Assembly (NCBI GenBank): GCA_026713605.1
Contig: JAPOOC010000007.1
Location: 59,418 to 123,417, forward strand
Source of the DNA: Candidatus Kaiserbacteria bacterium
GTDB taxonomy: Bacteria; Patescibacteriota; Minisyncoccia; Phycocordibacterales; JABAAK01
Length of the DNA stretch: 64,000 bases
Direction: 5' to 3'
Shown here: piece by piece, positions 11,700 to 49,489 of the stretch
Layout: every line of letters starts with the position of its first letter
Numbering within the stretch: the stretch's first letter is position 1
Made by a program: the position numbers and the translations under genes
Notes under the pieces: model-generated
Told to the model about the DNA's origin: nothing
The model's database searches: none
Seen by the model: the letters and a program-made list of their open reading frames with translations, nothing else

Positions 11700-13622
11700 C
11701 TAAGAAGCAAAAATAACAGGAACGATAATGGGACGCTTCTTCATTTCTGAATAGAGGTAGTTTTGGGTCTCACGAACAAGATTTCGTTTAATGGCGTCCA
11801 AGTTTATCATTTTGTTGCGACGAAGGGATCGCTCCACAGAACGACGCGCTATCATACGAGACCGGTTAATGAGTGGCTGCGACTCTTTGAGGTACACAAA
11901 GCCACGAGAAATAATGTCAGGAGATTTTTTCACCTTTTTGAGCCGCTTATTGATAAGAACAATCACCACAAAAATACCCTCTTCTTTAAGGGTGATTCTG
12001 TCATTGAGGACAACATCTTGTGCGGTGCCGACAGCATTACCATCCACAACAACAACCTCTGTCGGCATAGTATAATCCTGCATCGTAATTGACTTACTGT
12101 CAGGACTGATATCCACAATAGATCCGTTGTTCGGAAGAATAATATTTTCTTCAGGCATACCAATATCACGAAGTATTTGGGCATGCGCAGAGAGCATAAA
12201 GTGGTAGCCGTGAATAGGAGTAAAAAATGTCGCATCAATATTCTCGTGGATCCACTTAAGTTCATCTCGGTTTGCATGCCCACTAGAGTGGACATCGCTG
12301 GTTTGGTAGGTAATAAGGTCAACACCAAGCTTAGAAAGACGATCTTTCAAATTCTGCACCGGCTCTTCATTGCCGGGAATAATTGAAGAGGAAAAAACAA
12401 CCGTGTCTCTGTTATCCAGCTTAAGATGCCGATGCGTGCCACGGGACATTCTGTCCATTGCAGTAAAATTGTCTCCCTGAGCACCAGTTGCAAGCACAAG
12501 AAGTTTCTCTTTCGGGTAATCCCCCATTTTTTCAACAGGAATAATGGCGGTGAGCGGAACTTTTAGCAGCCCCAACTCAGAAGCAATGGTGAGGTTGGTT
12601 ATCATTGACCTACCCTGCACTATCACTTTCCTGCCACTTTCAATAGCGTGCTCAATAATTCTGATAGTACGCTCTATCTGCGTTGAAAATGCGGAAAGAA
12701 TAACACGACCTTTGGTCTCTTTGATGATTTTACCAATGGTTTCCACCACGCGTTTCTCGGGGAGAGAAAAGCCAGGTCGCTCTGCGTTTGTTGAGTCCGC
12801 CATGGTGAGAAGAATATTTTTCTTCTTAATGGCGGCAAACTCCTTAACCTCCTCAGGGCCGACAACACCATCTTCGTGAGTAAGTTTAAGGTCACCAGTA
12901 AATACAATCGCGCCGAGCGGGGTATCTATAACAATACCCATTGCATCAGGGATGGTGTGGGTAACAGAAAAAAAAGTGAGGATAAGATTTTCACTAAGAG
13001 TGAGAACAGTGCTTTTCTCCACCTCGTGGTAAACGATGGGTTCCTTACTCTCAAATTCACTCTGTCTGTTTCTAATAAGTTCAATACTTAATTTCCGGGA
13101 AAAAATTGGAGGGTTACCAATTCTATTCAGAACAACTGATATACCGCCGATATGGTCAAGGTGGGCATGCGATATCACCAACCCTTTTATTTTTTCTTTT
13201 CGCTCCTCAAGGTATTGAATGTTTGGAACAATAAAATCAATACCGGGCGTGTCGTTCTGTGCAAACTTCATGCCACAATCAAGCAACAAAATTTCATCTT
13301 CATACTCAATACCATACATATTTTTCCCAATTTCTCCGACACCGCCAAAAAATAAAATACGGACAGCGTCTTTTTCCTGTCGCGGAATATTGAGTGTCGA
13401 CTCGGCATCGTAGTTGGTGGTGAGCTCACGCGACCCGATAAGTCCGCCTTGCCGTCGAAGTGGCTTTTGATAAAGTCCAGAGGAGACCTTTTGTTTTTTG
13501 ACATCACCTGATCCAGAGGTTTTTTTTGACGCACTCTTTTTGGAAGATGCCTTCTTGCCAGCACTGGTACGCTCGATCACTTTTTTAGTAGTTGTAGGTT
13601 TCTTTGTTTCTGCCATACGCAT
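11700..13622 (-). CDS. rnj: Ribonuclease J (metallo-beta-lactamase / beta-CASP), catalytically intact paralog
   Basis: HxHxDH motif VISHAHLDHIGG, downstream His/Asp motifs (SVTHTIPDA, FTGDLK), beta-CASP and C-terminal domain; basic Lys-rich N-terminal extension; 640 aa. Confidence 0.85.
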   Translation of the reverse strand: MRMAETKKPTTTKKVIERTSAGKKASSKKSASKKTSGSGDVKKQKVSSGLYQKPLRRQGGLIGSRELTTNYDAESTLNIPRQEKDAVRILFFGGVGEIGKNMYGIEYEDEILLLDCGMKFAQNDTPGIDFIVPNIQYLEERKEKIKGLVISHAHLDHIGGISVVLNRIGNPPIFSRKLSIELIRNRQSEFESKEPIVYHEVEKSTVLTLSENLILTFFSVTHTIPDAMGIVIDTPLGAIVFTGDLKLTHEDGVVGPEEVKEFAAIKKKNILLTMADSTNAERPGFSLPEKRVVETIGKIIKETKGRVILSAFSTQIERTIRIIEHAIESGRKVIVQGRSMITNLTIASELGLLKVPLTAIIPVEKMGDYPKEKLLVLATGAQGDNFTAMDRMSRGTHRHLKLDNRDTVVFSSSIIPGNEEPVQNLKDRLSKLGVDLITYQTSDVHSSGHANRDELKWIHENIDATFFTPIHGYHFMLSAHAQILRDIGMPEENIILPNNGSIVDISPDSKSITMQDYTMPTEVVVVDGNAVGTAQDVVLNDRITLKEEGIFVVIVLINKRLKKVKKSPDIISRGFVYLKESQPLINRSRMIARRSVERSLRRNKMINLDAIKRNLVRETQNYLYSEMKKRPIIVPVIFAS

Positions 13623-13634
13623 TATGTAATGTAA

Positions 13635-15416
13635 TTATTGGGTAAATATAACCGGAACAACAATCGGTCGCTTGTTGGTCTCATTTACCAAAAAGGTCTG
13701 CACCTCTTTTTGTATTGCCTTTTTCATCTTATCAATCTCAACCCTACCAGTTTCCTTCGCCTCTTTTTCAGCGGCTTTCTTGATAACGATACGGACACGG
13801 GCAATAAGGTCCTGTGACTCGCGTAAATAGATAAAGCCACGAGAAATAATGTCAGGAGATTTTTTAACCTCAAGGGTTTTTCGGTCAATAAAGACGATAA
13901 TAATAAAGATGCCTTCTTGTGAGAGAGTATTTCGGTCCTGCACGACAACATCCTGTACCGGAGAAAGAGTATGACCATCAACAGAGACGGCGGTAGTTTC
14001 CATTCGCTGCTTCTGTTTTTTAATAACCTTACCATCAGGGCTGACATCTATTATTGAACCATTTTCCGGCACAGCAAAAGAATCCTGCGACATGCCGAGT
14101 TCACGGAGTATGTGCGTATGTGCATTAAGCATGTAGTGATAACCTTGAACAGGGATGAAGAACTTCGCATTAAGAAGTTGGTGCATCCAGCGAAGCTCAC
14201 TCTTGTTGGCATGTCCGCTACCCTTAACATCGCTGGTATTGTACGATCGGGTAATCGCACCAAGGCGGGAAAGACGATCCTTAAGATTCTGTGTCGCTTG
14301 CGCATTCGCAGAAATCATCGGTGAAGGAAATATAATAGTATCTTTTGTGATAACAGAAGTGTGGCGGTAACTTTCACGAGATATGCTCTCCAACGCTTCA
14401 CAAATTTCATTTTCTTCAGCAGTAAAAGCAATAAACACCTCCTCAGAATCATCATCTTTTTTCATCTCCTGAATAGGAATAAGGGACTCCTTTGGCATTT
14501 GCATGATACCAAGTTCCGAGGCAGTTTGAAGGTTTTCCAAAAGCAACGCACCTTCCACATAAGTTTTTTTACCAGCCCGGAACGCTTTTTCCAATAGCAT
14601 TGCATTCCTCTTTATTTGAGACGGAAAGAGCGGTATCAGTACACGGTGCGGCGCTTCCTGCATCATCTGGTCAACCTCTTCAACTATCTCATGGTCGGTT
14701 ATGGCAAAGCCCGGGCGTTCTGATCCAACCGAATCAGCAAGAGAAAGAATAACATCTTTCTCTTTCGCCGCTTTGAACGCCTCCTCCTCTTCAGCACGAA
14801 TGATTTCCTTGTTGTGACTGACCTTAAGGTTGCCAGTATAAGCAATACAGCCAGAAGGGGTCTCTATAAGCACACCAAGCGTACTCGGCGCATTGTCGGC
14901 AATGCCAAAGAAGTGGAGGGTAACATCGTCGTTGACAACAACTGACTCCGCTTTTTCCACTTCGTGAAATGACACATGCAATGTTCCGCGGAGCGTATTC
15001 TGGTGGTTTTCTATAATGGCCTTAGTAAGTTTTCTGGTGTACAGCACAGGGTCTCCCAAAGCACGAGTAACATACGGAATAGCACCAATATGCTTCATAG
15101 AGGCATCTGTAACGATCAGCGCCTTGACATCTTGCTTCCTATCTTTGAGGTATTGGATATTCGGCATAACAGCATTGACACCAGGGGTGCTGCTCTCGCC
15201 GAACATAGTGCCACACTCCAATAGCACAATGGTGTTATTGTACTCAATGCCGTACATATTTTTGCCAATCTCTGATATGCCACCAAACACAAGCGTACGA
15301 ATCTCACCTTTGTTTGGTTTAGGAATAAATACTTTTTTTGGTTTTTTGGTGTCGACTGTTTTGCTTTTTATGTGTGACGGGCGTGATTGTCTGTAGTTTC
15401 TTTTTGGTATTGCCAT
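13635..15416 (-). CDS. Ribonuclease J paralog with degenerate catalytic motifs (probable pseudo-enzyme)
   Basis: Colinear with upstream RNase J but motif II is IVTDASMKHIGA (HxHxDH lost), and GIADNAPST / YTGNLK replace the His/Asp ligands; 593 aa. Confidence 0.8.
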   Translation of the reverse strand: MAIPKRNYRQSRPSHIKSKTVDTKKPKKVFIPKPNKGEIRTLVFGGISEIGKNMYGIEYNNTIVLLECGTMFGESSTPGVNAVMPNIQYLKDRKQDVKALIVTDASMKHIGAIPYVTRALGDPVLYTRKLTKAIIENHQNTLRGTLHVSFHEVEKAESVVVNDDVTLHFFGIADNAPSTLGVLIETPSGCIAYTGNLKVSHNKEIIRAEEEEAFKAAKEKDVILSLADSVGSERPGFAITDHEIVEEVDQMMQEAPHRVLIPLFPSQIKRNAMLLEKAFRAGKKTYVEGALLLENLQTASELGIMQMPKESLIPIQEMKKDDDSEEVFIAFTAEENEICEALESISRESYRHTSVITKDTIIFPSPMISANAQATQNLKDRLSRLGAITRSYNTSDVKGSGHANKSELRWMHQLLNAKFFIPVQGYHYMLNAHTHILRELGMSQDSFAVPENGSIIDVSPDGKVIKKQKQRMETTAVSVDGHTLSPVQDVVVQDRNTLSQEGIFIIIVFIDRKTLEVKKSPDIISRGFIYLRESQDLIARVRIVIKKAAEKEAKETGRVEIDKMKKAIQKEVQTFLVNETNKRPIVVPVIFTQ

Positions 15417-25849: not shown

Positions 25850-27520
25850 TTACGCCACCAGGTAAGGGACAATCTCGGTGGTGCCGAGGTGTTCCGCGGT
25901 CTGCCCGGGGGGCAGAATGCGGATGCGGGAGTTGAAGCCACGGTCGACTTCAAACTCCTCGGAGAGGGTCTTTCCGACTGGAATCGTCCGGAACAGAACC
26001 TCTTCCTCTTCGTCGTCTCTGATCTGGACGGCGAAGGTAATCTCCGTCTCCTGTGGCAGACGGAGAGAGATTGCATAGTAGGCGACCTCGTCATCCCCTC
26101 CGAGACGACGAGGTTCAAGGACGCAGCCGGACGCCCGTAAGGCATCCTTTACTGCATCCTGCAGCTCGCCGCATTGCGCAACAAGTGCTGATTTCTCAGC
26201 ATTCGCCGCCTCAAGGGCGACGCCGAGCTCGGTATTCTGCCGCTCAGCAGCGACGAGGGCGGAGAAGCGACGCTCAGCAGCAACCGCTTCAACTTCTGCT
26301 GATTCAGCGACTTTCGCCGCCTCATCAGCAGAAACTCTCGCCGCCACTTGTGCGGCCTCTGCCGCATCAAGATCTGCGGTCAAGGCAGAAACTTGCGTTT
26401 CTGCGTGCCGCAGGTCAGCAGCGAGGCGACCGATTGCAACATCGGCTTTCCGTGCCTCGCCGTTGAGGCGGCTGAGCCCTTCCGACGCCTCATCGTGTGC
26501 CGCCTCGGCATCAGAGAGGGCACTCGCAAGACCGTCGGCATCAAGAACCTTGACACCGTTTTCAATGGCCTTCGCTGCCGCTTCGGACGCCTGTTTCGCC
26601 TCAGCGAGAGCGGCCTCCGATGTAAGGGCGGCTTTCGCCGCCTCTTCAACGGCCTCCCAAGCGCTCTCAGCACCGCTGATAGCGTCTTGGTGGGCACCTT
26701 GTAGGTGCCCTTGTTCCGCCTCGGCGGTCTGCAGGGTACCCTGCAGAGCTACCACCTGCTGCTTTGCAGCAGCAAGGTTTGCCGTCGAAGCAGCAAGATC
26801 CGCCGCAGCAAGATCCGCCACCTTGCGCTCTTCAAAAGCGCTAAGGCGGACTTGCACGCCGGCAGCGTGCGCTTCCGCGCGCTCCGCATGCTCCCGCAGC
26901 GGAGTCGCGACGGCTTCTGCCGTCGCTTGTGCGGTCTCGGCAGCGTGCCGCGCTTCCACCGCTTCAGCGGCCGTTTTCTCGGCAACCGCCAAAGCATCGT
27001 TAGATGCTTGGAGGGCGCCTTCGATTTTGGCGATCTTGTCGTCTGTCACCTTGGCTTCCGCCTTAGCGGTTTCAACCGCCTCCTTGGCGACTTGAAGGTC
27101 CTTCTCCAGACCTTCAACGGTCGCCTCAGCGGCGTCAAGATCCTCTTCGGAGGACTCTAAGTCCTCCTCAAGACCCTTGATGTTCTCAAGGGTCTTGGGA
27201 TCCGGCGCCATGAGCTGCAACACCGGACCCACCATGGCTGCGATGATGAATACCACCGCTTCCATCTGGCCGAACACCAAAGAAGGTGTCCAGCCAAATC
27301 CGACAAATCCAGCCGCCAGAAGTAGGGCGAGCAGACCAAGGATCCCCCCTCCCATGCGGGGGAAAAACGAGTTTTCGTAACTCCGCACCATGATCAGTGC
27401 GGAACTTAGCAGCAGCAAAGCTGCTGCTGATACTGTCTGGGTTTCCGCATCAAGTGCGGAAAAGGCCACGACGGTCACCGCAGTGAGCATCAAGGCTGCG
27501 ATCGCAATCATTCTCTTCAT
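25850..27520 (-). CDS. Polytopic membrane-anchored, Ala/Glu-rich coiled-coil protein (unknown function)
   Basis: Start set at MKRMIAIAAL with strong SD AGGAGG (ORF track extends to 27646); ~4 TM segments, ~380 aa heptad-like Ala/Glu/Lys repeats, small C-terminal domain; locally much higher GC than neighbours. Confidence 0.65.
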   Translation of the reverse strand: MKRMIAIAALMLTAVTVVAFSALDAETQTVSAAALLLLSSALIMVRSYENSFFPRMGGGILGLLALLLAAGFVGFGWTPSLVFGQMEAVVFIIAAMVGPVLQLMAPDPKTLENIKGLEEDLESSEEDLDAAEATVEGLEKDLQVAKEAVETAKAEAKVTDDKIAKIEGALQASNDALAVAEKTAAEAVEARHAAETAQATAEAVATPLREHAERAEAHAAGVQVRLSAFEERKVADLAAADLAASTANLAAAKQQVVALQGTLQTAEAEQGHLQGAHQDAISGAESAWEAVEEAAKAALTSEAALAEAKQASEAAAKAIENGVKVLDADGLASALSDAEAAHDEASEGLSRLNGEARKADVAIGRLAADLRHAETQVSALTADLDAAEAAQVAARVSADEAAKVAESAEVEAVAAERRFSALVAAERQNTELGVALEAANAEKSALVAQCGELQDAVKDALRASGCVLEPRRLGGDDEVAYYAISLRLPQETEITFAVQIRDDEEEEVLFRTIPVGKTLSEEFEVDRGFNSRIRILPPGQTAEHLGTTEIVPYLVA

Positions 27521-27750
27521 TTCTTTTCCTCCTGGCAAGCACTCGCTTGCCATCTTTATGCCCTCTTCTCTTTGAGGAGGGCGAAGTTCTTTGTAATTTG
27601 TAATGTTCAAAGCGGGGGATATGCACAAAACCCCTACCTCCATCACAAATTATACATAATGATATAATATCATAAAACAGCAAAAAACGCAAGTTTCAAA
27701 GCCACCCCAAAAACAGCAAAAACACCTCTATCTTGAGGGGTTTTAAGTAC

Positions 27751-37683: not shown

Positions 37684-38232
37684 TTAAAAATGTTTCCCCC
37701 ACGAGAGCTTTCTCACCTCTCGCTTCAAATACTCTCCACAGCAAAGCGTTGCTCTACAGTGGGAGTGGGGGATCACATTACGGATACGCCGCTCTTTCTG
37801 CAACTGCCTCACCAGTGCATCCAGAGAGGCAACCTGTGCTTTAGTCGGCCGATGCTTTGAGAAGTCACCAGCCAAGCATACCGCAACGGAATGCTTGTTG
37901 ACACGCCAGTTACCGGCGTGGTGACCAACATCATCCGGGTCACGAACCTTCCACACCTTGCCGTTCGGTGTGATCAGGTAATGATAGGCAATGTGCAATC
38001 CGGCACTCTTGCCCATCTTCCGAAATTTCCGTCTGTGCAGACGGCTAATTTCTGCCGTCACCTGCTTGATGTCATTGCTTGCCACACCAGCGGTGTGGTG
38101 CACCACAATAGTCGTGATGGCACGGCGCGTACCACCAAGTAATGAATCGCCTCCTCTGCGCGCACCGCCACAGCCATACAGCCAAAAAGCGGTGGCAATA
38201 CAAAACAGGAAAAAGAAAACAAATTTCCTCAT
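37684..38232 (-). CDS. N-acetylmuramoyl-L-alanine amidase (Amidase_2/PGRP domain) lipoprotein
   Basis: Start set at MRKFVFFFLFCIATAFWLYGC (lipobox LYGC); Amidase_2 motifs VVHHTAGV...HHAGNW...HSVAVCLAGDF; 182 aa. Confidence 0.8.
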   Translation of the reverse strand: MRKFVFFFLFCIATAFWLYGCGGARRGGDSLLGGTRRAITTIVVHHTAGVASNDIKQVTAEISRLHRRKFRKMGKSAGLHIAYHYLITPNGKVWKVRDPDDVGHHAGNWRVNKHSVAVCLAGDFSKHRPTKAQVASLDALVRQLQKERRIRNVIPHSHCRATLCCGEYLKREVRKLSWGKHF

Positions 38233-39467: not shown

Positions 39468-39821
39468 ATGCTAATATTCTCGTACGGTACGGTTTTTGCA
39501 GACACAGCGAATGAAAGCTCTGCGTTGCAAGAGGTAAATAGGGTGCTGAACCTATTTGATAGTTTTTCTGTAGTGATAGAAGTGCTGATCGTCATAGTCA
39601 CAATCCTTGTTTTCTTGTACTTTTTCTGGGGTTTAGTAGAGTATATTCGCAAAAACGATGCGACACTTGAGGAGGCAAAAAAAAAGATTGCGTGGGGAGT
39701 GTTAGGGATATTTGTATTAGTGAGTATGTGGGGACTGATTTACTCCCTCCGCATCTCAGTGCTCGGCTCAAAAGACACCCCAGATCCAAATATAGAATTC
39801 CGAAAAGTAGAGTCGCTCTAA
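39468..39821 (+). CDS. VirB2/TrbC-like pilin paralog 4
   Basis: TM (LVFLYFFWGLVEYIR) - loop (KNDATLEEAKKK) - TM (IAWGVLGIFVLVSMWGLI); closest to paralog 3. Confidence 0.5.
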   Translation: MLIFSYGTVFADTANESSALQEVNRVLNLFDSFSVVIEVLIVIVTILVFLYFFWGLVEYIRKNDATLEEAKKKIAWGVLGIFVLVSMWGLIYSLRISVLGSKDTPDPNIEFRKVESL

Positions 39822-39850
39822 CCGCATAAAACCCGGTATACTAAACCTAT

Positions 39851-40156
39851 ATGCTCACATACGCCCTCTCAGCAAAAGAAATAGCCAACAACCTCTTTGA
39901 CCACATCGTCAACCCGCTAATGGCAGGCATGCTCTTCATCGCCATCCTCTTTTTCATCATCATCGCGGTAAAACTCATAGCTGGCGCAGAATCAACGGAA
40001 AGAAAAGACCTCTTCACCAAGCTCGGCTGGAGTATTGCTGGCATTTTCATCATCACCTCCGTCTGGACCATCATCGCTTTTGTCAGCAGGGTAGCAGAGT
40101 CAGACATCAAAACATCCCTATACCACTCCGCAGAAATCGCACCACAGTTGACATAA
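39851..40156 (+). CDS. VirB2/TrbC-like pilin paralog 5
   Basis: TM (MLFIAILFFIIIAVKLIAG) - loop (AESTERKDLFTK) - TM (LGWSIAGIFIITSVWTII); 101 aa. Confidence 0.5.
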   Translation: MLTYALSAKEIANNLFDHIVNPLMAGMLFIAILFFIIIAVKLIAGAESTERKDLFTKLGWSIAGIFIITSVWTIIAFVSRVAESDIKTSLYHSAEIAPQLT

Positions 40157-40229
40157 CCACTTTTTCTTGGTACACTCTATCCCAAGTTTGACCTTTTAGA
40201 ATTGAAACCGCGGGCCACAGCGCCCGCAT

Positions 40230-40739
40230 ATGGAGGAAAGAATGAAAAAGTTAATGAGAAACCTAGCCATGGCAGTAGTCATGGCAGCGGCGATACTCGC
40301 CGCTGGCTGCGGGACCACCACTGAGGTGGTAGAGGTCCCGGTAGAGATTACGACCTCTCCCACGGAAACGACGGAAGTTGTTGAGATCCCGAACAGGGAG
40401 CTCGACTTAAGCGTTACGGTCGACCAGGCCGTAACAATCACCGCCGCGACGGCGGTTGGCCTCCAGCACCACCAGGCCCCGGAGATCGGCAAAATCGACT
40501 CCCGGACCAAGCGTCCGGTGAAACTCACAGTGATCGGGTCGGACTCGCTTCACGCAAAATCCGATTCGCGCGTAATCGGAGCCCCCAAACACGGGTTCCG
40601 GATCGGCGAGGACACATTGGTCAACCTTGGCGACACGGACCGGGAAACCGATGTTCGCGTCAGGGCGAACTTTGACCACCAGTATTCTGGCGGGTCAAAG
40701 GTTATAGGAGCCCCCAAACCGGCGCTCAAAGTCGACTAA
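40230..40739 (+). CDS. Lipoprotein with internal duplicated module
   Basis: Lipobox AAGC after signal peptide; duplicated VIGAPK(H/P)(G/A)(F/L)(R/K)(I/V) C-terminal modules; GC-rich. Confidence 0.55.
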   Translation: MEERMKKLMRNLAMAVVMAAAILAAGCGTTTEVVEVPVEITTSPTETTEVVEIPNRELDLSVTVDQAVTITAATAVGLQHHQAPEIGKIDSRTKRPVKLTVIGSDSLHAKSDSRVIGAPKHGFRIGEDTLVNLGDTDRETDVRVRANFDHQYSGGSKVIGAPKPALKVD

Positions 40740-40762
40740 CCCTTTCCCCTTTCCCTATCGCT

Positions 40763-40812
40763 CTGAGAAAATGCATAGTTTTCTATGTTTTCTCAGGGCG
40801 ATTTTTTATTGC
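40763..40812 (+). terminator. Rho-independent terminator of lipoprotein gene
   Basis: Long hairpin CTGAGAAAATGCATAG-TTT-CTATGTTTTCTCAG then GGCGATTTTTTATT. Confidence 0.65.
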
Positions 40813-40869
40813 CCAAAATAAAAAATGGTACACAGGTTTCACTTGCATTGGGGTGATGCTTATAAAAAT

Positions 40870-40897
40870 TTGACAAATCATTTTTTTTGAGTATCAT
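40870..40897 (+). promoter_or_regulatory. Candidate promoter for 40929 gene
   Basis: TTGACA - 16 nt - TATCAT, then SD AGGAGA 9 nt before ATG. Confidence 0.45.
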
Positions 40898-40928
40898 AAC
40901 TGTTGGCTGGTCTTAGGAGAATACAAGA

Positions 40929-41792
40929 ATGACTTTTTTGAAGAGAATCGCAACTTTCGCCGCAACTTTCGCAGTCGTGCTCGCACTCACAGCTCCGACC
41001 TTCGCCGTTGATGGCGTGTCCTTTGGGACAACCGCCACCGAGGAAACCGCCGAGGCCGCTGAGGCCGCTCAGGCCGACGAGAAGTCGGGTAACGGCGTCA
41101 ACGACATTGACGTTGACTACAAATCAGAGATAAAATTCGAGGAAGGCGCCATTGGCACCTTCGAGGGTACCAAGGACGCTGCAAAAACCATCGCAGCGAT
41201 CAACGATCCTGCAATAAAGCGCTACGCCCTTCAGGGCATAGTGTACTCCCAAGGTCAGATGAGTGTAGAAAACGCCTACCGGGAACTCCAAGACGGAGAC
41301 CGGAAGGCGATCAATGCAGCGATCAGCTCCAACGACAAGATCGTTAGAGCGCTCACGATTGCAGCATCAGACGCAACTCTGCCGTTGGCGAAGGTGGATC
41401 GTATCCTTCAAAGTATTGAGGGATATGCGATGGCAAACACGTACCTGCTTGCCAAGTTAGGAACGACCAAGGTCGTTTCGAACGAAGGCGGCACCACCCC
41501 CAACCCCTTCAACGAGGGGAATGGACTTGACCTTGCGCATGTAATCGTGTTTGCAGGTCTCGTGATTCTCGCTTGGATCGCGGGAAACAGAGTCCTTGCA
41601 TGGGCGAAGGTCCAGAAGGAAAAGTTGGCTGCAAAGAAAAAAGCCAAAGAAGCCGAAGAAACCGCCGCGAAAGACGCGCTTCGCGAGAAGCGCGCCCGCG
41701 AAACCGGCGGCACCTCACGCAACCGCAACCGCAACCGCAACCGAAACCGCGGTGCGGAAGAAGCAGCCACCTCCGAGGTGGTAGAAGCTTAG
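40929..41792 (+). CDS. Secreted surface protein with C-terminal TM anchor and (Asn-Arg)n cytoplasmic tail
   Basis: Signal peptide ...APTFAVDG; C-terminal TM LAHVIVFAGLVILAWIAG; tail KKKAKEAEE...NRNRNRNRNRG. Confidence 0.55.
   Translation: MTFLKRIATFAATFAVVLALTAPTFAVDGVSFGTTATEETAEAAEAAQADEKSGNGVNDIDVDYKSEIKFEEGAIGTFEGTKDAAKTIAAINDPAIKRYALQGIVYSQGQMSVENAYRELQDGDRKAINAAISSNDKIVRALTIAASDATLPLAKVDRILQSIEGYAMANTYLLAKLGTTKVVSNEGGTTPNPFNEGNGLDLAHVIVFAGLVILAWIAGNRVLAWAKVQKEKLAAKKKAKEAEETAAKDALREKRARETGGTSRNRNRNRNRNRGAEEAATSEVVEA
41719..41748 (+). repeat. Hexanucleotide microsatellite (CAACCG)x4-5 inside the 40929 CDS
   Basis: caaccgcaaccgcaaccgcaaccgaaaccg encodes NRNRNRNRNR. Confidence 0.8.
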
Positions 41793-41835
41793 ATCTTTCA
41801 TCGGCACCTCCCTCCCAGAGGTTCGGTGCCACTAC

Positions 41836-41868
41836 ATGCCTCCTGCATTTGCAGGAGGCATTTTTTTA
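41836..41868 (+). terminator. Rho-independent terminator
   Basis: ATGCCTCCTGCA-TT-TGCAGGAGGCAT followed by T7. Confidence 0.8.
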
Positions 41869-42091
41869 TACACTAAAAAACCTTGAAACAAAAGGACATT
41901 TTGAATATACGGGCTATACGGGTACACTACCGACAGGGTGCCAGCAAAACAATTTGACAAAATCTACTTAAAATGGTATATTATAAAAAGAAATCGCTTT
42001 CTGTGCGATCCATATAAAATAATACTCATCGTTATTTTATATGGGTCGCGCACATAACGGCGACTCAATAGTTTACAATTCAAAAAAAAAA

Positions 42092-42132
42092 CTCCCGCAA
42101 CAGCGGGAATAAATTCCCGCTGTTGCGGGGGA
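42092..42132. promoter_or_regulatory. ~19-bp GC-rich perfect hairpin immediately 5' of the SD of gene 42142 (A10 upstream, so also a terminator-like structure when read on the minus strand)
   Basis: CTCCCGCAACAGCGGGAA-TAAA-TTCCCGCTGTTGCGGGGG, then GAGGAAGAAAAATG. Confidence 0.5.
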
Positions 42133-42141
42133 GGAAGAAAA

Positions 42142-43902
42142 ATGAAATTTTTTTTAATGATTGTTGGCGTGGCATTAGTAATTTCCCCGTTCGCCTTGAA
42201 GGCGTGGAACGGGGAAGAGGTTCCCATCCCCGGACTCAACGGCCTCATTGAGGCCATCCGCGACGACGCCACCGAGGCCGACGAAGCAACCGAAGAGGCC
42301 ACTAAAGCGGCCGAGAGAGAGGGAGAACTTTCCTTCTCCCGCATGATGCTGGAGCGGGATGTGAAGCGGATTTCGGCGTTTGAGAACGCCGACGGGTACT
42401 TGGTTACCCGCAGCGACGAGGAGTACAAAGACCTCGCCGCCGCCCTCTCTCGCTTCCGCCTCACCTCTGATAGTGCCAAGAAGGCACTTGATGAGGCGAG
42501 GGGGAAGAGGGGGTACCCCCTCTTTTTCTCCATCGCCCTCGGCGAGGCGGTGGAGGAAGAACCCTTCCTCCAAGTTGTCGGAACGGCGACGATCGAGTGG
42601 TGCAGGTCACGAGAAGAGGCCTATCCGCTCCCCAAAGGTGTGAATTGGTTTACGGTCGGGGCGAACCCGCTCGTGACCCGCGGAGAAATCGAAACTCCCT
42701 CGTTCAGAACAATGAGGGAATTCGTCGCGGCGGAAATCGCTCCCATCGTCGACTCTGCCGACGGTGAGGCGTTAGTCGCCGCCGCAATAGCGGGGAGAAA
42801 GGCGGACCTCGAATTTTTCGGAGTCCAAACGGCCCCCGGGATCATGTCTGCCAAGATTTGGCGGACATATAAAGGGGAAACGGAGGAGCGCATCCCCGCG
42901 GTGCGGTTCCTCCCGTTCATAGAGTCGCGTGCAATCAGCACGCATCCGGCCCATGCCGAGGTGAGGTACAAGTTCGCCGAGGCAATAGACCTCGACCCCG
43001 ACCGCCTCGAAGAGGCGTTGAAGGGGGTGGTCGAAAAGACCGATTCCCGCCGGGCACTCGTCACCTACTGGCCACACCGGCAGGAGCTGAGGGTAGAAGT
43101 GCCCTCAGCATTCACCGACGTGGTGATACGTGTACTCTCTCCAGAGTCCTTGTGGAGAGAGGCCTACAGGGTCGCTTCGGCGACCATGGGCGTTCAGGCG
43201 TCCATCCCTGATCTTGAATTGGAGATCTTAGAAGACCTTGGTCGATATCATGTCGATCAGGGTAAGAAGATCCACCACCACGAGGACTTCCCCGAGAGGT
43301 TTGTGTGTTTGACGCAGGAGAGTAAGTCAGGTGTTGAGGGTAAGATTATTTCTTACCGAGACGCCCAAACACTCCTCCCACGGGAGGGAATCTTGAACGC
43401 TGCCCAACTGCAGGCAGCAATCCAACGAGTGTTGGATCAAGATCCTGAGAGGTCACATTTCGAGTTTGGGTGCCTCCAAACGAGAGAAGAGATCATGGAT
43501 CTCTTCTCTCAGTATCAGTCGGGTTTTGAAAACCCAGCTGACGCATTCCCGTGCCATATGGGATATGACTACACGACGCGTCGTGTAATCATGTTCCAGC
43601 GGATTCAGCAGGACAGACCTGCTGAAACTGCGGACGCCGTCGGGGGAGAGAAACCCTTGGCGTCATACGGAGTAAAAAACTTCAGCGAAAAATCTCTCAA
43701 GGAATTGAGAGAAATGATCGCTGAAGAACACGGAATCACCCTCGCCATCGACGGAGGCGAGGCGAGGTCCTTGGCCTTGAGTATAATAAAGGCCAAAGGT
43801 CTCCCCGTCAAGATACGGGGAGACAAAATTGAGGGCGGTCACGCCCTCATCCATGTAATTTCCTCAAAGAAAATTAGCATGGATGTGGTTGCAGATGAGT
43901 AG
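42142..43902 (+). CDS. Large secreted protein of unknown function
   Basis: Signal peptide MKFFLMIVGVALVISPFALKA; 586 aa; GC-rich; no recognised family. Confidence 0.6.
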   Translation: MKFFLMIVGVALVISPFALKAWNGEEVPIPGLNGLIEAIRDDATEADEATEEATKAAEREGELSFSRMMLERDVKRISAFENADGYLVTRSDEEYKDLAAALSRFRLTSDSAKKALDEARGKRGYPLFFSIALGEAVEEEPFLQVVGTATIEWCRSREEAYPLPKGVNWFTVGANPLVTRGEIETPSFRTMREFVAAEIAPIVDSADGEALVAAAIAGRKADLEFFGVQTAPGIMSAKIWRTYKGETEERIPAVRFLPFIESRAISTHPAHAEVRYKFAEAIDLDPDRLEEALKGVVEKTDSRRALVTYWPHRQELRVEVPSAFTDVVIRVLSPESLWREAYRVASATMGVQASIPDLELEILEDLGRYHVDQGKKIHHHEDFPERFVCLTQESKSGVEGKIISYRDAQTLLPREGILNAAQLQAAIQRVLDQDPERSHFEFGCLQTREEIMDLFSQYQSGFENPADAFPCHMGYDYTTRRVIMFQRIQQDRPAETADAVGGEKPLASYGVKNFSEKSLKELREMIAEEHGITLAIDGGEARSLALSIIKAKGLPVKIRGDKIEGGHALIHVISSKKISMDVVADE

Positions 43903-44163
43903 TTTCGTCTGCAATCCCACGCCCAACAGAGCGTGAACAGAATCTGTTATAGTTTGAGGGGTTCTATTAAAAAAACTCCTTCTATCGCAAACTGATACCG
44001 TTTGCCTGATGAGTCCATGGTAGGACGAAATAGATACATTGACAATCTTGGAAGCAGCATAGTCCACATATCATGATAGTACTACGGTCATGGTATGTGG
44101 GCTATGGTGCCCAAAAAAAACGCCGCCGAGGGTTTCGGTGGCATGATCTGGTTGAAGTTACAC

Positions 44164-44185
44164 CCCGGCTCCGCCGGGAAAGGAG
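44164..44185 (+). promoter_or_regulatory. Conserved 5'-UTR hairpin + SD motif (copy 1)
   Basis: CCCGGCTCCGCCGGG hairpin then AAAGGAG, ATG 6 nt later; near-identical to 48436-48457. Confidence 0.5.
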
Positions 44186-44191
44186 CAAAAA

Positions 44192-44743
44192 ATGAAAGGT
44201 TTAATTTTCATCATCACGGCAGCTATGGCACTGCTCATGACCACGGTCGCCGACGCAGAGTCGGCAAGTAGCATCTCGGTCTGGCGGGTAGAACCACCCG
44301 CCAAGGAAAAAACCAGAAAAACATACACCGTCCCTGAGACGGATGTTAATATCACGATCGAAGACAAGATCGTGGTTGAAAGTGGGGGCGTGGTGCTTGA
44401 CGCACCACGCCCAAAGGACCCGAAAGAAATGATACGGGTGACCGCAGACCTTACGGCTGCGGTCATGCAGCGGGTCGCCGTCAAAGCGGAGACGCCTCCC
44501 AAGGAGGAAACATCCCCTAAAGAGGTCCCAGCTGAGAAGGTGGAACCGACACCCACGGCCCCGGCAACTCCAAAGGTAGACGCTCGCGATAGCAGCGTCT
44601 ACTATGCCGAGGGGAATGTCAATGTGCACAACAACAATGTGCACATTGGCGGCGGGAAAGGGAAGCGGAAGATAACCGTCCGTCGGCGGTACTTCCGAAC
44701 TGAACCCGCCGTCCGGGGGTTTGGCGCAGTCGGGCTGCGCTAA
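44192..44743 (+). CDS. Secreted protein of unknown function
   Basis: Signal peptide MKGLIFIITAAMALLMTTVADA; Pro/Glu/Thr-rich linker; 183 aa. Confidence 0.55.
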   Translation: MKGLIFIITAAMALLMTTVADAESASSISVWRVEPPAKEKTRKTYTVPETDVNITIEDKIVVESGGVVLDAPRPKDPKEMIRVTADLTAAVMQRVAVKAETPPKEETSPKEVPAEKVEPTPTAPATPKVDARDSSVYYAEGNVNVHNNNVHIGGGKGKRKITVRRRYFRTEPAVRGFGAVGLR

Positions 44744-44760
44744 CCCGCAAGGTCTTTGAT

Positions 44761-44799
44761 GGCACCGATTCAGCAATGAATCGGTGCCATTTATTTTTT
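44761..44799 (+). terminator. Rho-independent terminator
   Basis: 12-bp stem GGCACCGATTCA-GCAA-TGAATCGGTGCC then ATTTATTTTTT. Confidence 0.85.
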
Positions 44800-44819
44800 A
44801 AGGGTGTATCCCACAAAAA

Positions 44820-44848
44820 TTGCCAAAACAGGAGAAGTGGGGTATAAT
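44820..44848 (+). promoter_or_regulatory. Candidate promoter for 44885 gene
   Basis: TTGCCA - 17 nt - TATAAT. Confidence 0.5.
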
Positions 44849-44884
44849 ATAAAGTAAATTGATGTTTACGAAGGGGGGAAGGAA

Positions 44885-45481
44885 ATGAAGTTCCTTGCAC
44901 TGCTACTAGCAATCTCCTCGCTATCATTTGCCAGCGCAGAAGCAAACGATAGCGCGGTGTTTCTAACGCTACCTGGCTTTGAGGAAAAAGTCGGTGTGGC
45001 GTTTGACGCGAAAGAGGTAGAGATGGTCGCAGTGTACCGTGGTAACAATCTCTACCTCCGCCCACTCAGCAGGAAATTGCGACTGCTGCTGGGAAAAGAA
45101 AAGGCAGTCGCCACCAAAACCCTCTCTCTGCCAAACCTCATCAGGGATGAGGCGGCACGAGGGAAGGGGGAAACCCCCGCACTGCTGATCTCCGAGCGGG
45201 CATTTGGTAAGCCCGCCGACACCTTCCTTTTGCGTGTGAAAGGGAAGGTGATCAGTGGGAGGTTTCCCAAGGAAAAGGGTAACCAGTCCCAAGTAGGGGT
45301 GGCACTCTTCATGGGGAAGAAAGGGGTGCACCTCTACTGCCTCTACGTCTCAGAAGAAAGTGTAGAGGTTAACTTCCGCACACTCACCGAGCGGCAGTAC
45401 AAAGCTGCGAAGAAGAGTGTTGCGGAGAAGTTGAAGGCCGCCGGGCAGAAAAAGGCGGCAAAAAAGGTGGGTGACCTTTAG
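44885..45481 (+). CDS. Secreted protein of unknown function
   Basis: Signal peptide MKFLALLLAISSLSFASAEA; 198 aa; strong SD GGGGGGAAGGAAATG. Confidence 0.55.
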   Translation: MKFLALLLAISSLSFASAEANDSAVFLTLPGFEEKVGVAFDAKEVEMVAVYRGNNLYLRPLSRKLRLLLGKEKAVATKTLSLPNLIRDEAARGKGETPALLISERAFGKPADTFLLRVKGKVISGRFPKEKGNQSQVGVALFMGKKGVHLYCLYVSEESVEVNFRTLTERQYKAAKKSVAEKLKAAGQKKAAKKVGDL

Positions 45482-48250: not shown

Positions 48251-48367
48251 ACATACCAGTATACCAAAATATAGGAAAATAGAGGGATTTTTGGGATGTT
48301 TGGGTATATAGTAGAAGAAATACCCATAAAACCCTTATTTCATAAGGTTTTTTATAATAACACAAGA

Positions 48368-48396
48368 TTGACAATATAGCAAATATAAGCCATAAT
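48368..48396 (+). promoter_or_regulatory. Candidate promoter for 48464 gene
   Basis: TTGACA - 17 nt - CATAAT. Confidence 0.5.
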
Positions 48397-48435
48397 ACAT
48401 ATAGTGTATTTTTTGGAATCTTAACTTTATTTTAT

Positions 48436-48457
48436 CCCGGCTCTGCCGGGAAAGGGG
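48436..48457 (+). promoter_or_regulatory. Conserved 5'-UTR hairpin + SD motif (copy 2)
   Basis: CCCGGCTCTGCCGGG hairpin then AAAGGGG, ATG 6 nt later. Confidence 0.5.
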
Positions 48458-48463
48458 AAAGAA

Positions 48464-49489
48464 ATGAAAACCTTCTTATTTTTCTGCCTCGCCGTGTCCC
48501 TAGGTGCATTCCTGGGGCTGTTCGACGGCGAGGCACCCACATCTCCCTCTCCCAGCAGGGAGGGGAGAATTGCCACCACCATCAAGAGAATTGAGCGGGT
48601 GGTGGTAAAGACAAGGCGTCAAAAAAAGGCGCCAGCAAAACTCCCTGCCAGCGAGCGGGGGGTAGTCGGTGCGGCCAAAAAGATAGGGCCGCACACCAGC
48701 ATCCCAGAAGAGGTGTTGGTGGGGATTGCCGAACAGGAAACACAGTTCGGCAAAAACTTCGGAAAAGCGGGGCGCGCGCTCAATCGCGCGCGCTCAATCA
48801 AGGAGCAAGCGCTCCTTGCGTTTGTCGCGGCGGAAAGAGGGGTGTCCATTGAGCAAATGGAGACATCCACTTCTGCGGCGTTCGGGCTGACACAGGCCAG
48901 ACCGTCGCTATATCTTGCCCATTGCGGGCTGGAGGTGCAGTTCGGAAAAACCCCAACCGTCCTTCTGCACGGGACACAGGCATACCGCAGTATGTCCCGC
49001 GCAGAAAGATCCGCTGGGATCAGAGAGATCCAGCGGAAGTTGGGGATGAAAAAAGTTGATGGGCTGATCGGCCCGTCAACATTAGAGGCGATCGAGGAAA
49101 AGGTCGGTCGCAGGGCTTTTGACAAGGTAGCGAAATACCTCCTGGTCAAAAAGTACTATGGTAACCACGTGAAATTGGTTACCAGCAAAGAGCGCGACAA
49201 GGTTTTTCAAAGAATCTGTCGCGCGGAAAGAAGAGATCCGGTGAGAACGAAGTATTTCTTGCCAGACCTCTGGAACCCGGTGCACGCTCTGGCATACACC
49301 AGCGTGCATCTGGAGGACGACCTCCGCATAGCGAAGAGATCGTCCAAGCGGGAAGATTCCGCAGTAGATGTGGCAATTGCCGCGTATTACTGTGGAATCA
49401 AATCTGCCCTGAACCGCAACCCTGACGGGCTGTGGTATCAGAGGCAAGTGAAGGCAAAGGCAGGGAAATTTAAAACTGTCTTTGCTTAA
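48464..49489 (+). CDS. Secreted cell-wall-associated protein with PG_binding_1-like peptidoglycan-binding domain
   Basis: Signal peptide; IREIQRKLGMKKVDGLIGPSTLEAI resembles PGBD helix-pair motif; 341 aa. Confidence 0.5.
   Translation: MKTFLFFCLAVSLGAFLGLFDGEAPTSPSPSREGRIATTIKRIERVVVKTRRQKKAPAKLPASERGVVGAAKKIGPHTSIPEEVLVGIAEQETQFGKNFGKAGRALNRARSIKEQALLAFVAAERGVSIEQMETSTSAAFGLTQARPSLYLAHCGLEVQFGKTPTVLLHGTQAYRSMSRAERSAGIREIQRKLGMKKVDGLIGPSTLEAIEEKVGRRAFDKVAKYLLVKKYYGNHVKLVTSKERDKVFQRICRAERRDPVRTKYFLPDLWNPVHALAYTSVHLEDDLRIAKRSSKREDSAVDVAIAAYYCGIKSALNRNPDGLWYQRQVKAKAGKFKTVFA

What the first reader, a model, noticed from the sequence alone, without database searches (positions are those of the whole stretch)
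44164..44194. 30-nt conserved 5'-UTR module (CCCGGCTCyGCCGGG hairpin + AAAGGrG + spacer + ATGAAA) shared by two unlinked secreted-protein genes
The sequences immediately upstream of genes 44192 and 48464 are nearly identical (CCCGGCTC[C/T]GCCGGGAAAGG[A/G]G[C/A]AAA[A/G]AAATGAAA), although the encoded proteins are not obviously similar. A GC hairpin abutting the SD in two places suggests a shared post-transcriptional control element or a duplicated/mobile regulatory cassette. Candidates are an RNA-binding protein site, an RNase processing signal, or a translational thermosensor. Both genes encode exported proteins.
Basis: seen in the sequence. Interest (0 to 1): 0.5.

Follow-up and report, generated by a model that had tools for sequence, protein, structure and literature searches.

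The report
Conserved hairpin beside ribosome-binding site
Two unrelated secreted-protein genes of an uncultured Kaiserbacteria (CPR) bacterium share a small, evolutionarily conserved RNA hairpin placed directly against their ribosome-binding sites; it is one version of a leader design used by this organism's few Shine-Dalgarno-led, exported-protein genes, and most likely a structural stabiliser or insulator of the mRNA, not a temperature switch or a mobile repeat.

Summary
CCCGGC-TCY-GCCGGG + AAAGGRG + 6 nt + ATGAAA occurs at 44164-44197 and 48436-48469, twice in the window with none expected by chance. Only the 15-nt hairpin is exceptional: 14/15 identical, against at most 7/15 in other leader pairs. 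The SD-spacer-ATG half matches a purine-rich consensus shared by all strong-SD genes here. The organism is a Candidatus Kaiserbacteria MAG in which most genes look leaderless. All 8 strong-SD starts in the window encode exported proteins, and 5 of them have a GC hairpin 0-4 nt before the SD. In a sister genome the 44192 orthologue (33% aa identity) keeps the identical stem with a different loop, and the 48464 orthologue has CCUGGU/GCCGGG, which pairs only as sense-strand RNA. Other leader hairpins are kept with compensatory changes. Copy 1 lies in an operon spacer behind a conserved hammerhead ribozyme, and two RNase J genes are in the window. Best reading: a conserved RNA-level clamp hairpin in the translation-initiation region, acting as a decay barrier or insulator, with the shared stem inherited or copied. 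It is not a thermosensor, terminator or MITE. A factor specific for this stem is not excluded.

The parts
44164..44178 (+). Hairpin copy 1: CCCGGC-UCC-GCCGGG, 6 G-C pairs, 3-nt loop
   Evidence: Orthologous leader in L085 has the identical stem with loop AAA.
44179..44191 (+). AAAGGAG Shine-Dalgarno (core GGAG 44182-44185) plus 6-nt A-rich spacer
   Evidence: Matches the purine-rich initiation-region consensus of all SD-led genes here.
44192..44743 (+). Gene for a 183-aa protein with signal-peptide-like N-terminus; near-ORFan, followed by a terminator at 44758-44791
   Evidence: Syntenic orthologue P0011 in L085.
48435..48451 (+). Hairpin copy 2: (U)CCCGGC-UCU-GCCGGG(A), 6 G-C pairs plus one U-A pair
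   Evidence: L078 orthologue has CCUGGU-UUGU-GCCGGG at the same place.
48451..48463 (+). AAAGGGG SD-like tract plus 6-nt purine spacer
48464..49489 (+). Gene for a 341-aa exported protein with weak SLT_2 / peptidoglycan-binding similarity; fast-evolving
48368..48396 (+). Promoter-like site TTGACA-17-CATAAT of gene 48464; predicted leader of about 60 nt, so the hairpin is about 32 nt from the predicted 5' end
   Evidence: -35/-10 conserved in all five orthologous leaders.
43979..44036 (+). Hammerhead ribozyme (type III topology), 77 nt after the stop of gene 42142 and 128 nt 5' of hairpin copy 1
   Evidence: 38.5 bits, E 8.8e-5 window-wide, below the Rfam gathering score of 48.5. Conserved in L085 (34.2 bits) with a compensatory pair in stem III.
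44062..44102 (+). Long conserved hairpin 2 of the 42142-44192 spacer
   Evidence: two compensatory pairs between window and L085
44113..44142 (+). A8 run plus hairpin 3 (GCCGCCGA-GGGUU-UCGGUGGC), which has a G.U pair on the sense strand only
   Evidence: L085 has GCCACCA...UGGUGGC.
27533..27552 (-). Same architecture, different sequence: UGGCAAGC-gagu-GCUUGCCA abutting GGAGGAAAAGAA-ATG of a 556-aa exported protein (start 27520)
40210..40227 (+). Same architecture: GCGGGC-cacagc-GCCCGC, 4 nt before GGAGGAAAGA-ATG of a 165-aa lipoprotein (start 40242)
   Evidence: L085 orthologue has a different hairpin at the same place.
42092..42131 (+). Same architecture: 18-bp hairpin whose 3' arm runs into GGGGGAGGAAG-ATG of gene 42142
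   Evidence: Kept in L085 with compensated changes.
44386..44431 (+). Internal site in gene 44192: perfect 11-bp hairpin (44386-44412) + AAAGGACCCGAAAGAA + in-frame ATG (44429, codon 80). The homologous site in L085 uses a CCCGGC-cac-GCCGGG hairpin.

Best explanation
The shared 30-nt module is the translation-initiation region of two exported-protein genes of a Candidatus Kaiserbacteria genome. It has two layers. (1) The 3' layer is a purine-rich SD, a 6-nt spacer and ATGAAR. All of this organism's minority of SD-led genes share it, so that half of the match is generic. (2) The 5' layer is a short, very stable all-GC stem-loop ending 0-4 nt before the SD. A hairpin in that position is a recurrent design of SD-led exported-protein genes in this lineage (5 of 8 in the window). 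It is maintained in evolution as a sense-strand RNA structure: stems are kept or compensated, and loops and linkers are free to change. I infer that the hairpin works structurally, as a clamp at the 5' edge of the ribosome-binding site. Together with the SD-bound ribosome it would stop 5'-to-3' decay by RNase J after the leader has been cut, by the conserved hammerhead in copy 1 or by an endonuclease in the AU-rich leader of copy 2. It would also keep the SD from pairing with variable upstream leader sequence. The identical CCCGGC/GCCGGG stem in two unrelated genes is best explained by common descent or copying of the initiation region. Little drift is then possible, because a 6-bp all-GC stem tolerates only C-to-U wobble changes, and those are exactly the changes seen in L078. 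Shown: the existence, the enrichment, the conservation pattern, the RNA-strand signature and the presence of RNase J genes. Inferred: the decay-barrier/insulator function and the copying.
For: The motif is real and non-random and the hairpin is stable. Only the hairpin identity is exceptional. All 8 strong-SD starts in the window encode exported proteins. Five have a GC hairpin ending 0-4 nt before the SD, against about 0.17 expected from a hairpin density of 0.0023 per nt-strand. Further SD-led starts in the same and related genomes are again exported proteins. About 22 of 41 genes have a -10-like box 4-13 nt before the ATG and no SD. Cross-species, the 44192 orthologue in L085 keeps the stem 12/12 with loop 0/3 and adjacent linker 5/21, at 33% protein identity. 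The L078 orthologue of 48464 has CCUGGU/GCCGGG, where both changes are C-to-U giving G.U on the sense strand only. L080 has a different hairpin 2 nt before AGGAGG. The 40242 and 42142 leader hairpins are kept with different or compensated sequences. Two RNase J paralogues are encoded at 11700-15416. A conserved hammerhead lies upstream of copy 1, with no promoter or terminator between genes 42142 and 44192. Precedent exists for leader structures and strong SDs as barriers to RNase J/E and for structured standby sites raising mRNA levels (PMC3997798, PMC5737220, PMC12743556), and for a ribozyme plus hairpin ahead of an RBS as an insulator (PMC7536230).
Against: There are no expression, 5'-end or half-life data. 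In copy 2 the hairpin is about 32 nt from the predicted transcription start, so it is not 5'-terminal unless the leader is processed. Three of eight SD-led genes in the window, four further SD-led genes outside it, and two of five 48464 orthologues have no such hairpin, so it is not obligatory. A purely structural role does not by itself explain why the same stem sequence recurs at five places in two genomes, including inside the L085 coding sequence. Folding predictions show no consistent gain in SD accessibility. The anti-SD of this organism's 16S rRNA could not be checked. L078 and L085 come from the same sequencing runs, but it is not proven that they are one genome.
Confidence: 0.5

Rival explanations
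1. Sequence-specific recognition: the CCCGGC/GCCGGG hairpin is the binding site of a dedicated trans-acting factor (an RNA-binding protein or small RNA) that co-regulates translation or decay of a small set of exported-protein genes, as a mini-regulon.
For: The same stem occurs in two unrelated genes and is retained in both orthologous leaders of a sister species. It is 12/12 identical at 33% protein identity. A third copy lies inside the L085 coding sequence, again 13 nt before an in-frame ATG. Other hairpins at this position drifted in sequence, while this one did not.
Against: The loop, which is the usual recognition surface, differs in every instance (UCC, UCU, AAA, CAC, UUGU). Only two genes carry the stem in about 77 kb of this genome. 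L076, L077 and L080 orthologues lack it. Three other exported-protein genes use unrelated hairpins at the same place. A 6-bp all-GC stem is expected to be sequence-frozen by stability alone. There is no GGA in the loops, so it is not CsrA-like. No candidate factor was identified.
Confidence: 0.2
2. DNA-level operator: CCCGGC-N3-GCCGGG is a palindromic binding site for a dimeric DNA-binding protein, acting as a repressor roadblock or another DNA transaction site.
For: It is a perfect 6+6 palindrome whose central spacer varies freely, as is typical of operators.
Against: Its position is fixed relative to the SD (0-7 nt) and not relative to a promoter. Copy 1 has no promoter-like site within 2 kb upstream on its strand and lies inside an operon spacer. 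The L078 version changes 2 of 6 bases of one half-site in a way that keeps RNA pairing (G.U) but breaks DNA symmetry, and its spacer is 4 nt instead of 3. One copy lies inside a coding sequence.
Confidence: 0.08
3. RNA thermometer or other SD-sequestering switch, one of the first reader's candidates.
For: In copy 2 the U-rich leader can pair weakly with the purine-rich SD with the GC hairpin at the apex, which is fourU-like (z = -2.3).
Against: That extension is absent in copy 1 and is not conserved. The shared stem excludes the SD and is too stable (six G-C pairs, -10.3 kcal/mol). Predicted SD accessibility changes by 0.02-0.23 between 20 and 45 C, and the change is not specific to hairpin-bearing leaders.
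Confidence: 0.03
4. No function: a chance match, a neutral remnant of a recent duplication, or a small mobile palindromic repeat (MITE/REP-like).
For: Exact 20-mer matches occur about 55 times across public genomes and metagenomes, some next to a GGAG-ATG, so such hairpins can arise independently. The 48464 locus is a hypervariable, recombining cassette.
Against: None are expected by chance in the window. The public hits are single copies in unrelated, mostly GC-rich genomes. There is no extended similarity, no terminal repeats, no further copies in about 13 kb more of the same genome or in about 70 kb of related genomes, and none in viral contigs. The patchy cross-species conservation (stem 12/12, loop 0/3, linker 5/21) indicates selection and not recent transfer.
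Confidence: 0.04

Closest known systems
Leader stem-loop / strong-RBS mRNA stabilisers (E. coli ompA 5'-UTR hairpins; B. subtilis aprE leader, hbs, ermC and polypurine 'STAB-SD'-type stabilisers)
   Same: A stable stem-loop in the leader combined with a strong, purine-rich SD, upstream of genes for abundant exported proteins (ompA and aprE are also exported). The nuclease such elements block in Firmicutes, RNase J, is encoded in the window (PMC3997798, PMC5737220).
   Different: The classical stabiliser hairpins are at or within a few nt of the 5' end. Here the hairpin abuts the SD and is about 32 nt (copy 2) or more than 170 nt (copy 1, counted from the hammerhead cut) from the predicted 5' end. 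No half-life data exist. The organism is a CPR bacterium with mostly leaderless genes.
RiboJ-type synthetic insulators (hammerhead ribozyme plus hairpin placed before the RBS)
   Same: Copy 1 has a self-cleaving hammerhead upstream and a hairpin directly before the SD. This would give the downstream cistron a defined, structured 5' region independent of upstream context (PMC7536230).
   Different: It is natural, not engineered. The ribozyme and the SD-adjacent hairpin are 128 nt apart with two further conserved hairpins between them. Copy 2 has no ribozyme.
Hammerhead ribozymes between genes of bacterial and phage polycistronic transcripts (Perreault et al. 2011, PMC3088659)
   Same: An intergenic hammerhead with a complete catalytic core lies between two co-oriented genes without an intervening promoter or terminator. 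It is conserved with covariation.
   Different: There is no phage context (viral scans negative). It scores below Rfam's gathering threshold. It has type III topology in a CPR chromosome.
RNA thermometers (fourU, ROSE) and other SD-sequestering leader switches
   Same: A hairpin in the leader close to the SD.
   Different: The SD is outside the conserved stem. The stem is all G-C, and no temperature response is predicted.
Structured ribosome standby sites
   Same: A structured element immediately 5' of the SD, which in synthetic libraries raises mRNA level (PMC12743556).
   Different: That work is in model organisms that have ribosomal protein S1. Whether the reduced CPR ribosome uses standby binding is unknown.

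Membership tests
Hammerhead ribozyme, type III (Rfam RF00008); applies to 43979-44036, not to the flagged hairpin | Conserved catalytic core CUGAUGA ... GAAA and an NUH cleavage triplet | tested here: met
   The core is intact in the window (AUC) and in L085 (AUA).
Hammerhead ribozyme, type III (Rfam RF00008) | Three helices around the core with stem III open; pairing supported by covariation | tested here: met
   The cmscan alignments and RNAalifold recover stems I, II and III. Stem III has one compensatory pair, U-A versus C-G.
Hammerhead ribozyme, type III (Rfam RF00008) | Score at or above Rfam's gathering threshold (48.5 bits) | tested here: not met
   38.5 bits (window) and 34.2 bits (L085); E 8.8e-5 window-wide.
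Hammerhead ribozyme, type III (Rfam RF00008) | Self-cleavage activity | not testable with these tools
   Needs in-vitro transcription and cleavage, or 5'-OH end mapping.
5'-terminal mRNA stabiliser stem-loops (ompA/aprE type) | Stem-loop at or within a few nt of the mRNA 5' end | tested here: inconclusive
   The predicted start of the 48464 transcript is about 32 nt upstream of the hairpin. Copy 1 lies in an operon spacer. Processed 5' ends are unknown.
5'-terminal mRNA stabiliser stem-loops (ompA/aprE type) | Cooperation with a strong SD, and presence of the 5'-end-dependent nuclease | tested here: met
   Strong purine-rich SD 0-4 nt downstream. Two RNase J genes are in the window.
5'-terminal mRNA stabiliser stem-loops (ompA/aprE type) | Measured increase of mRNA half-life | not testable with these tools
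   No expression data are available.
RNA thermometer (fourU/ROSE) | SD or AUG paired within a marginally stable helix that melts in the physiological range | tested here: not met
   The SD lies outside the shared stem. The stem has six G-C pairs (-10.3 kcal/mol). Predicted SD accessibility is nearly flat from 20 to 45 C.
MITE / REP-like dispersed palindromic repeat | Many copies per genome, extended conserved sequence or terminal repeats, mostly outside start-codon contexts | tested here: not met
   Two copies in 64 kb and none in about 13 kb more of the same genome. Similarity is limited to 34 nt. Both copies lie 13 nt before a start codon. The whole genome was not available.
Intrinsic (Rho-independent) terminator | GC-rich hairpin followed by a U tract | tested here: not met
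   AAAGG follows on the + strand, and there is no T run on the - strand either. The hairpin is absent from the terminator scan.
CsrA/RsmA binding hairpin | GGA motif in the hairpin loop | tested here: not met
   The loops are UCC, UCU, AAA, CAC and UUGU.
Any curated Rfam cis-regulatory family covering the flagged module | A covariance-model match at 44150-44200 or 48400-48470 | tested here: not met
   Permissive scans (E up to 10) of both regions give only noise-level small-RNA hits.

The most novel reading that the evidence does not exclude
In a CPR bacterium that translates most genes from leaderless mRNAs, the fast-evolving, often GC-rich genes for exported proteins form a separate post-transcriptional class. 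They have long processed leaders (one with a conserved hammerhead), strong SDs and an SD-abutting hairpin. Within that class, the invariant CCCGGC/GCCGGG stem would be the recognition element of a dedicated factor that co-controls a small set of surface proteins, and possibly also an internal start that yields a signal-less isoform of the 44192 protein.
Probability: 0.12. Interest if true: 0.7.

Novelty: new member of a known kind. Interest (0 to 1): 0.4.

Why it matters
Almost nothing is known about gene expression in CPR/Patescibacteria, which cannot be grown alone and have reduced ribosomes. This locus suggests a clean division between leaderless housekeeping genes and SD-led genes for exported proteins, many of which carry a hairpin next to the SD. 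It also shows that at least four of these leader hairpins, and a hammerhead ribozyme inside an operon, are maintained by selection between species whose proteins have diverged to 23-59% identity. If the hairpin-plus-SD unit is an RNase J barrier or insulator, it is a compact natural part for stabilising mRNAs and a handle for predicting which surface proteins these episymbionts make in quantity. If it is factor-specific, it would be the first post-transcriptional regulon described in this radiation. As it stands, it is a well-supported but functionally untested cis element of a familiar type.

Tried and rejected
1. Longer repeat or MITE: aligning the two upstream regions shows no similarity beyond the 34 nt. 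Relaxed searches find no third copy in the window, in about 13 kb more of the same contig or in about 70 kb of related genomes, except at orthologous sites.
2. Widespread motif: exact scans of 596 Gb of genomes and of the JGI metagenomes gave 34 + 36 loci, single copies in unrelated and mostly GC-rich taxa. The few with GGAG-ATG context precede unrelated genes, such as a pantothenate kinase and a phage RecT-like gene. I treat these as background or convergence.
3. Phage or mobile origin: the viral-contig scans for the motif and for the proteins of genes 42142 and 44192 were negative.
4. Paralogy of the two genes: rejected by BLASTP.
5. Known RNA family at the module: none found.
6. Thermometer or SD sequestration: partition-function folding of 12 leaders at four temperatures showed no consistent effect.
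7. Recent gene conversion as the only cause of the identity: weakened, because both genes already carry the stem family in the sister species.
8. Foreign origin of SD-led genes: in the window they are completely separated from other genes by GC and GC3. Four SD-led exported genes outside the window are not GC-rich, so this is a tendency and is left open.
9. More hammerheads in related loci: none.
10. A MAFFT alignment of the four hairpin modules misplaced the L078 copy, so the pairs were read directly from the sequence.
11. P0005 could not be located on a contig.

Full report
**1. The observation**

The sequence is as described.
- Copy 1: CCCGGC-TCC-GCCGGG (44164-44178), AAAGGAG, CAAAAA, ATG at 44192.
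- Copy 2: CCCGGC-TCT-GCCGGG (48436-48450), AAAGGGG, AAAGAA, ATG at 48464.
- Identity is 30 of 34 positions from the first stem base to ATGAAA.

The 20-mer occurs twice in the window even with three mismatches allowed, and never in 100 shuffles. The hairpin alone folds at -10.3 kcal/mol. Similarity ends at the hairpin base upstream and after the second codon downstream. The two proteins are unrelated. Both have signal-peptide-like N-termini. The 341-aa protein has weak similarity to lytic transglycosylase and peptidoglycan-binding domains.

**2. Where the window comes from**

Identical proteins place the window on a contig of about 128 kb from a MAG named Candidatus Kaiserbacteria (CPR/Patescibacteria). 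It corresponds to positions 14811-78810 of ENA contig k141_332022.

**3. The context that explains half of the match**

I listed the sequence upstream of 41 gene starts.
- About 22 have a TATAAT-like box 4-13 nt before the ATG and no SD, so they look leaderless. This is inferred from sequence and there are no 5'-end data. The arrangement is conserved in a sister species, for example for the pilin gene.
- Only eight starts have a strong SD in an intergenic leader: 27520(-), 38232(-), 40242, 40929, 42142, 44192, 44885 and 48464.
- All eight encode proteins with signal-peptide or lipoprotein N-termini. Further strong-SD starts in 13 kb more of the same contig and in related genomes are again exported proteins.

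These initiation regions share a purine-only consensus, for example GGAGGAAAAGAA-ATGAAG. I compared all pairs of ten such regions in the same 34-nt frame.
- In the SD-spacer-ATGNNN part the flagged pair shares 16/19, but unrelated pairs reach 17/19.
- In the 15-nt hairpin frame the flagged pair shares 14/15, against a maximum of 7/15 (mean 3.4) in the other 44 pairs.
- So only the hairpin identity needs a special explanation.

**4. A hairpin against the SD is a recurrent design**

A scan for GC-rich stems ending just before an SD found the same layout at three more of the eight genes, each with an unrelated sequence.
- 27552-27533(-): UGGCAAGC/GCUUGCCA, touching GGAGG.
- 40210-40227: GCGGGC/GCCCGC, 4 nt before GGAGG.
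- 42092-42131: 18 bp, -36.7 kcal/mol, running into GGAGG.

With 298 such hairpins on the 128,000 nt of both strands, about 0.17 of 8 would be expected in that position. Five are seen.

**5. Comparative evidence**

*Gene 48464.* It has orthologues at about 50% identity in four other Kaiserbacteria genomes, syntenic with ClpB and with IF-2 or YgjP.
- Their leaders keep the promoter (TTGACAAT...CATAAT), a 5' 'tttttatgg' block, a U-rich tract and the SD.
- L077 and L076 have no GC hairpin.
- L080 has a different one, GAAGCUU/GGGCUUC, 2 nt before AGGAGG.
- L078/L079 have CCUGGU-UUGU-GCCGGG.

*Gene 44192.* It looked like an ORFan. An exhaustive HMMER search then found P0011, and its locus L085/L086 is fully syntenic with window 39468-45481. 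L085/L086 come from the same sequencing runs as L078/L079. The cluster's proteins are 23-59% identical, and the 44192 pair is 33% identical.

In that leader the same stem is present, uCCCGGC-aaa-GCCGGG-GGAGG. Segment-by-segment identity is sharply patchy:

| Segment | Identity |
|---|---|
| Hammerhead | 53/58 |
| Hairpin arms | 12/12 |
| Hairpin loop | 0/3 |
| Preceding linker | 5/21 |

That is the signature of purifying selection on the stem, not of recent transfer.

The two C-to-U changes in L078 keep pairing as G.U on the sense strand, but would be A.C mismatches on the other strand or in a DNA palindrome. The 40242 and 42142 leader hairpins are also retained in L085 with different or compensated sequences. 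The sharing of this stem by the two genes therefore predates the split of the two species.

**6. Copy 1 is not in a primary 5'-UTR**

No promoter-like or terminator-like site lies between the stop of gene 42142 (43902) and 44192. Instead the spacer holds a hammerhead ribozyme at 43979-44036.
- Its core is complete (CUGAUGA, GAAA, cleavage triplet AUC) and it has type III topology.
- It scores 38.5 bits, E 8.8e-5 for the whole window, which is below Rfam's gathering score.
- It is conserved in L085 (34.2 bits) with a compensatory U-A to C-G pair in stem III and an allowed C-to-A change at the cleavage nucleotide.

Two more conserved hairpins and an A-run follow before the flagged hairpin. Hammerheads that process polycistronic RNAs are known in bacteria and phages (PMC3088659). 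The synthetic RiboJ insulator is a hammerhead plus a hairpin ahead of the RBS (PMC7536230).

**7. Mechanism**

The window encodes two RNase J paralogues.
- In Firmicutes, RNase J degrades 5'-to-3' from processed ends and is stopped by leader structures and by ribosomes bound at a strong SD (PMC3997798, PMC5737220).
- Structured standby regions raise mRNA levels in synthetic libraries (PMC12743556).
- From my own knowledge, the 5'-OH product of the glmS ribozyme is an RNase J1 substrate.

I therefore infer that the hairpin plus SD is a decay barrier and context insulator for leadered mRNAs, in an organism whose other mRNAs are protected by being leaderless.

Folding of twelve leaders shows no consistent SD sequestration by the shared stem and almost no temperature dependence, so the thermosensor idea is disfavoured. 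The hairpin is not a terminator, because it has no U tract. It has no Rfam match.

**8. Why the same stem in two genes?**

Descent or copying of the initiation region is the simplest account.
- The 48464 locus is demonstrably a recombining, hypervariable cassette. L076 and L080 are about 99% identical in ClpB but only 39-59% identical across the leader and the 5' half of the gene.
- A six-pair all-GC stem can hardly drift except through wobble pairs.

A stem-specific factor cannot be excluded. L085 carries a third copy of the stem inside the coding sequence, 13 nt before an in-frame ATG. The window has a different, perfect 11-bp hairpin at the homologous place, 16 nt before the aligned in-frame ATG. 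Against a factor are the five different loops, the absence of the stem from three orthologues, and the unrelated hairpins used by other genes.

**9. Searches that came back negative**

- Exact scans of public genomes and metagenomes returned only scattered single copies in unrelated, mostly GC-rich taxa.
- Viral contigs gave nothing.
- No further hammerheads were found in related loci.

**10. Verdict**

This is a real, conserved, RNA-level cis element. It is one sequence variant of an SD-adjacent hairpin design specific to the SD-led, exported-protein genes of this lineage. In type it is ordinary, a leader stem-loop at a ribosome-binding site. Its setting is of moderate interest: a CPR genome, a leaderless majority, an operon-internal hammerhead and fast-evolving surface proteins. 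Function remains untested.

Noticed in passing
window 43979-44036 (+); L085 4790-4847: Hammerhead ribozyme (type III topology) in the spacer between genes 42142 and 44192. Its core is complete, it scores below Rfam's gathering threshold (38.5 and 34.2 bits), and it is conserved in the sister species with a compensatory pair in stem III and a C-to-A change at the cleavage nucleotide. No promoter or terminator separates the two genes.
   Followed up: yes
whole window (41 gene starts); L083, L076, L077, L087: About 22 of 41 genes have a -10-like box 4-13 nt before the ATG and no SD, so they look leaderless. Every strong-SD intergenic start (8 in the window, plus 4 in adjoining or related loci) encodes a protein with a signal-peptide or lipoprotein N-terminus. 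Not all exported proteins are SD-led (for example the pilins at 10816 and 36895).
   Followed up: partly
window genes 25850-27520(-), 37684-38232(-), 40242-40739, 40929-41792, 42142-43902, 44192-44743, 44885-45481, 48464-49489: The eight SD-led genes are completely separated from 24 other genes by composition: GC 0.52-0.60 and GC3 0.57-0.70, against GC 0.43-0.52 and GC3 0.39-0.53 (Mann-Whitney p=3e-5). The 48464 orthologues are also GC-rich relative to most neighbours, but four SD-led exported genes outside the window are not. Foreign origin, GC-biased conversion in recombining loci, or amino-acid bias remain unresolved.
   Followed up: partly
L076 9734-11000 versus L080 4695-6010 (orthologues of window 48251-49489): Two genomes that are about 99% identical in ClpB and 87-97% in other flanks are only 39-59% identical across the leader and 5' half of the 48464 orthologue. 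This is a hypervariable, apparently recombining cassette that includes the translation-initiation region.
   Followed up: partly
window 44386-44431 (+); L085 5195-5225: Inside gene 44192 a perfect 11-bp GC-rich hairpin is followed by AAAGGACCCGAAAGAA and an in-frame ATG (codon 80). At the aligned position the L085 orthologue has CCCGGC-cac-GCCGGG + GGTGAAGTTTAAG + in-frame ATG (codon 75). The geometry matches the leader module, so this is a candidate internal start giving a signal-less isoform, or a structural element within the mRNA. A second strong hairpin lies just upstream at 44351-44376.
   Followed up: partly
window 11700-13622 (-) and 13635-15416 (-): Two tandem RNase J paralogues. The second matches only the beta-CASP and C-terminal domains, so it may be J2-like.
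   Followed up: no
window 41985-42141 (+): Gene 42142 has a predicted leader of about 155 nt. It contains a long AT-rich hairpin (about 42003-42050), an A10 run and an 18-bp hairpin. On the minus strand this reads as a strong intrinsic terminator (hairpin followed by T10). The A-run and hairpin are conserved, with compensated changes, in L085.
   Followed up: partly
window 48418-48432; L077, L078, L076 and L080 leaders: The leaders of all 48464 orthologues keep a 'tttttATGG' block that opens a 3-11-codon mini-ORF (TTG in the window: TTG GAA TCT TAA). It could be a conserved upstream ORF or only a conserved leader sequence.
   Followed up: no
L085 1735-1775 (orthologue of window 40929): In the sister species this gene has a 6-bp hairpin (CCUCGG/CCGAGG) between GGAGG and the ATG, instead of before the SD. 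Looping it out would bring a 26-nt SD-ATG distance down to about 7 nt.
   Followed up: no
window 48451-48500, 42132-42165; L077, L078, L076 equivalents: In predicted folds the purine-rich SD and spacer repeatedly pair with the U-rich codons of the signal-peptide hydrophobic core just downstream. This may be incidental to composition.
   Followed up: no
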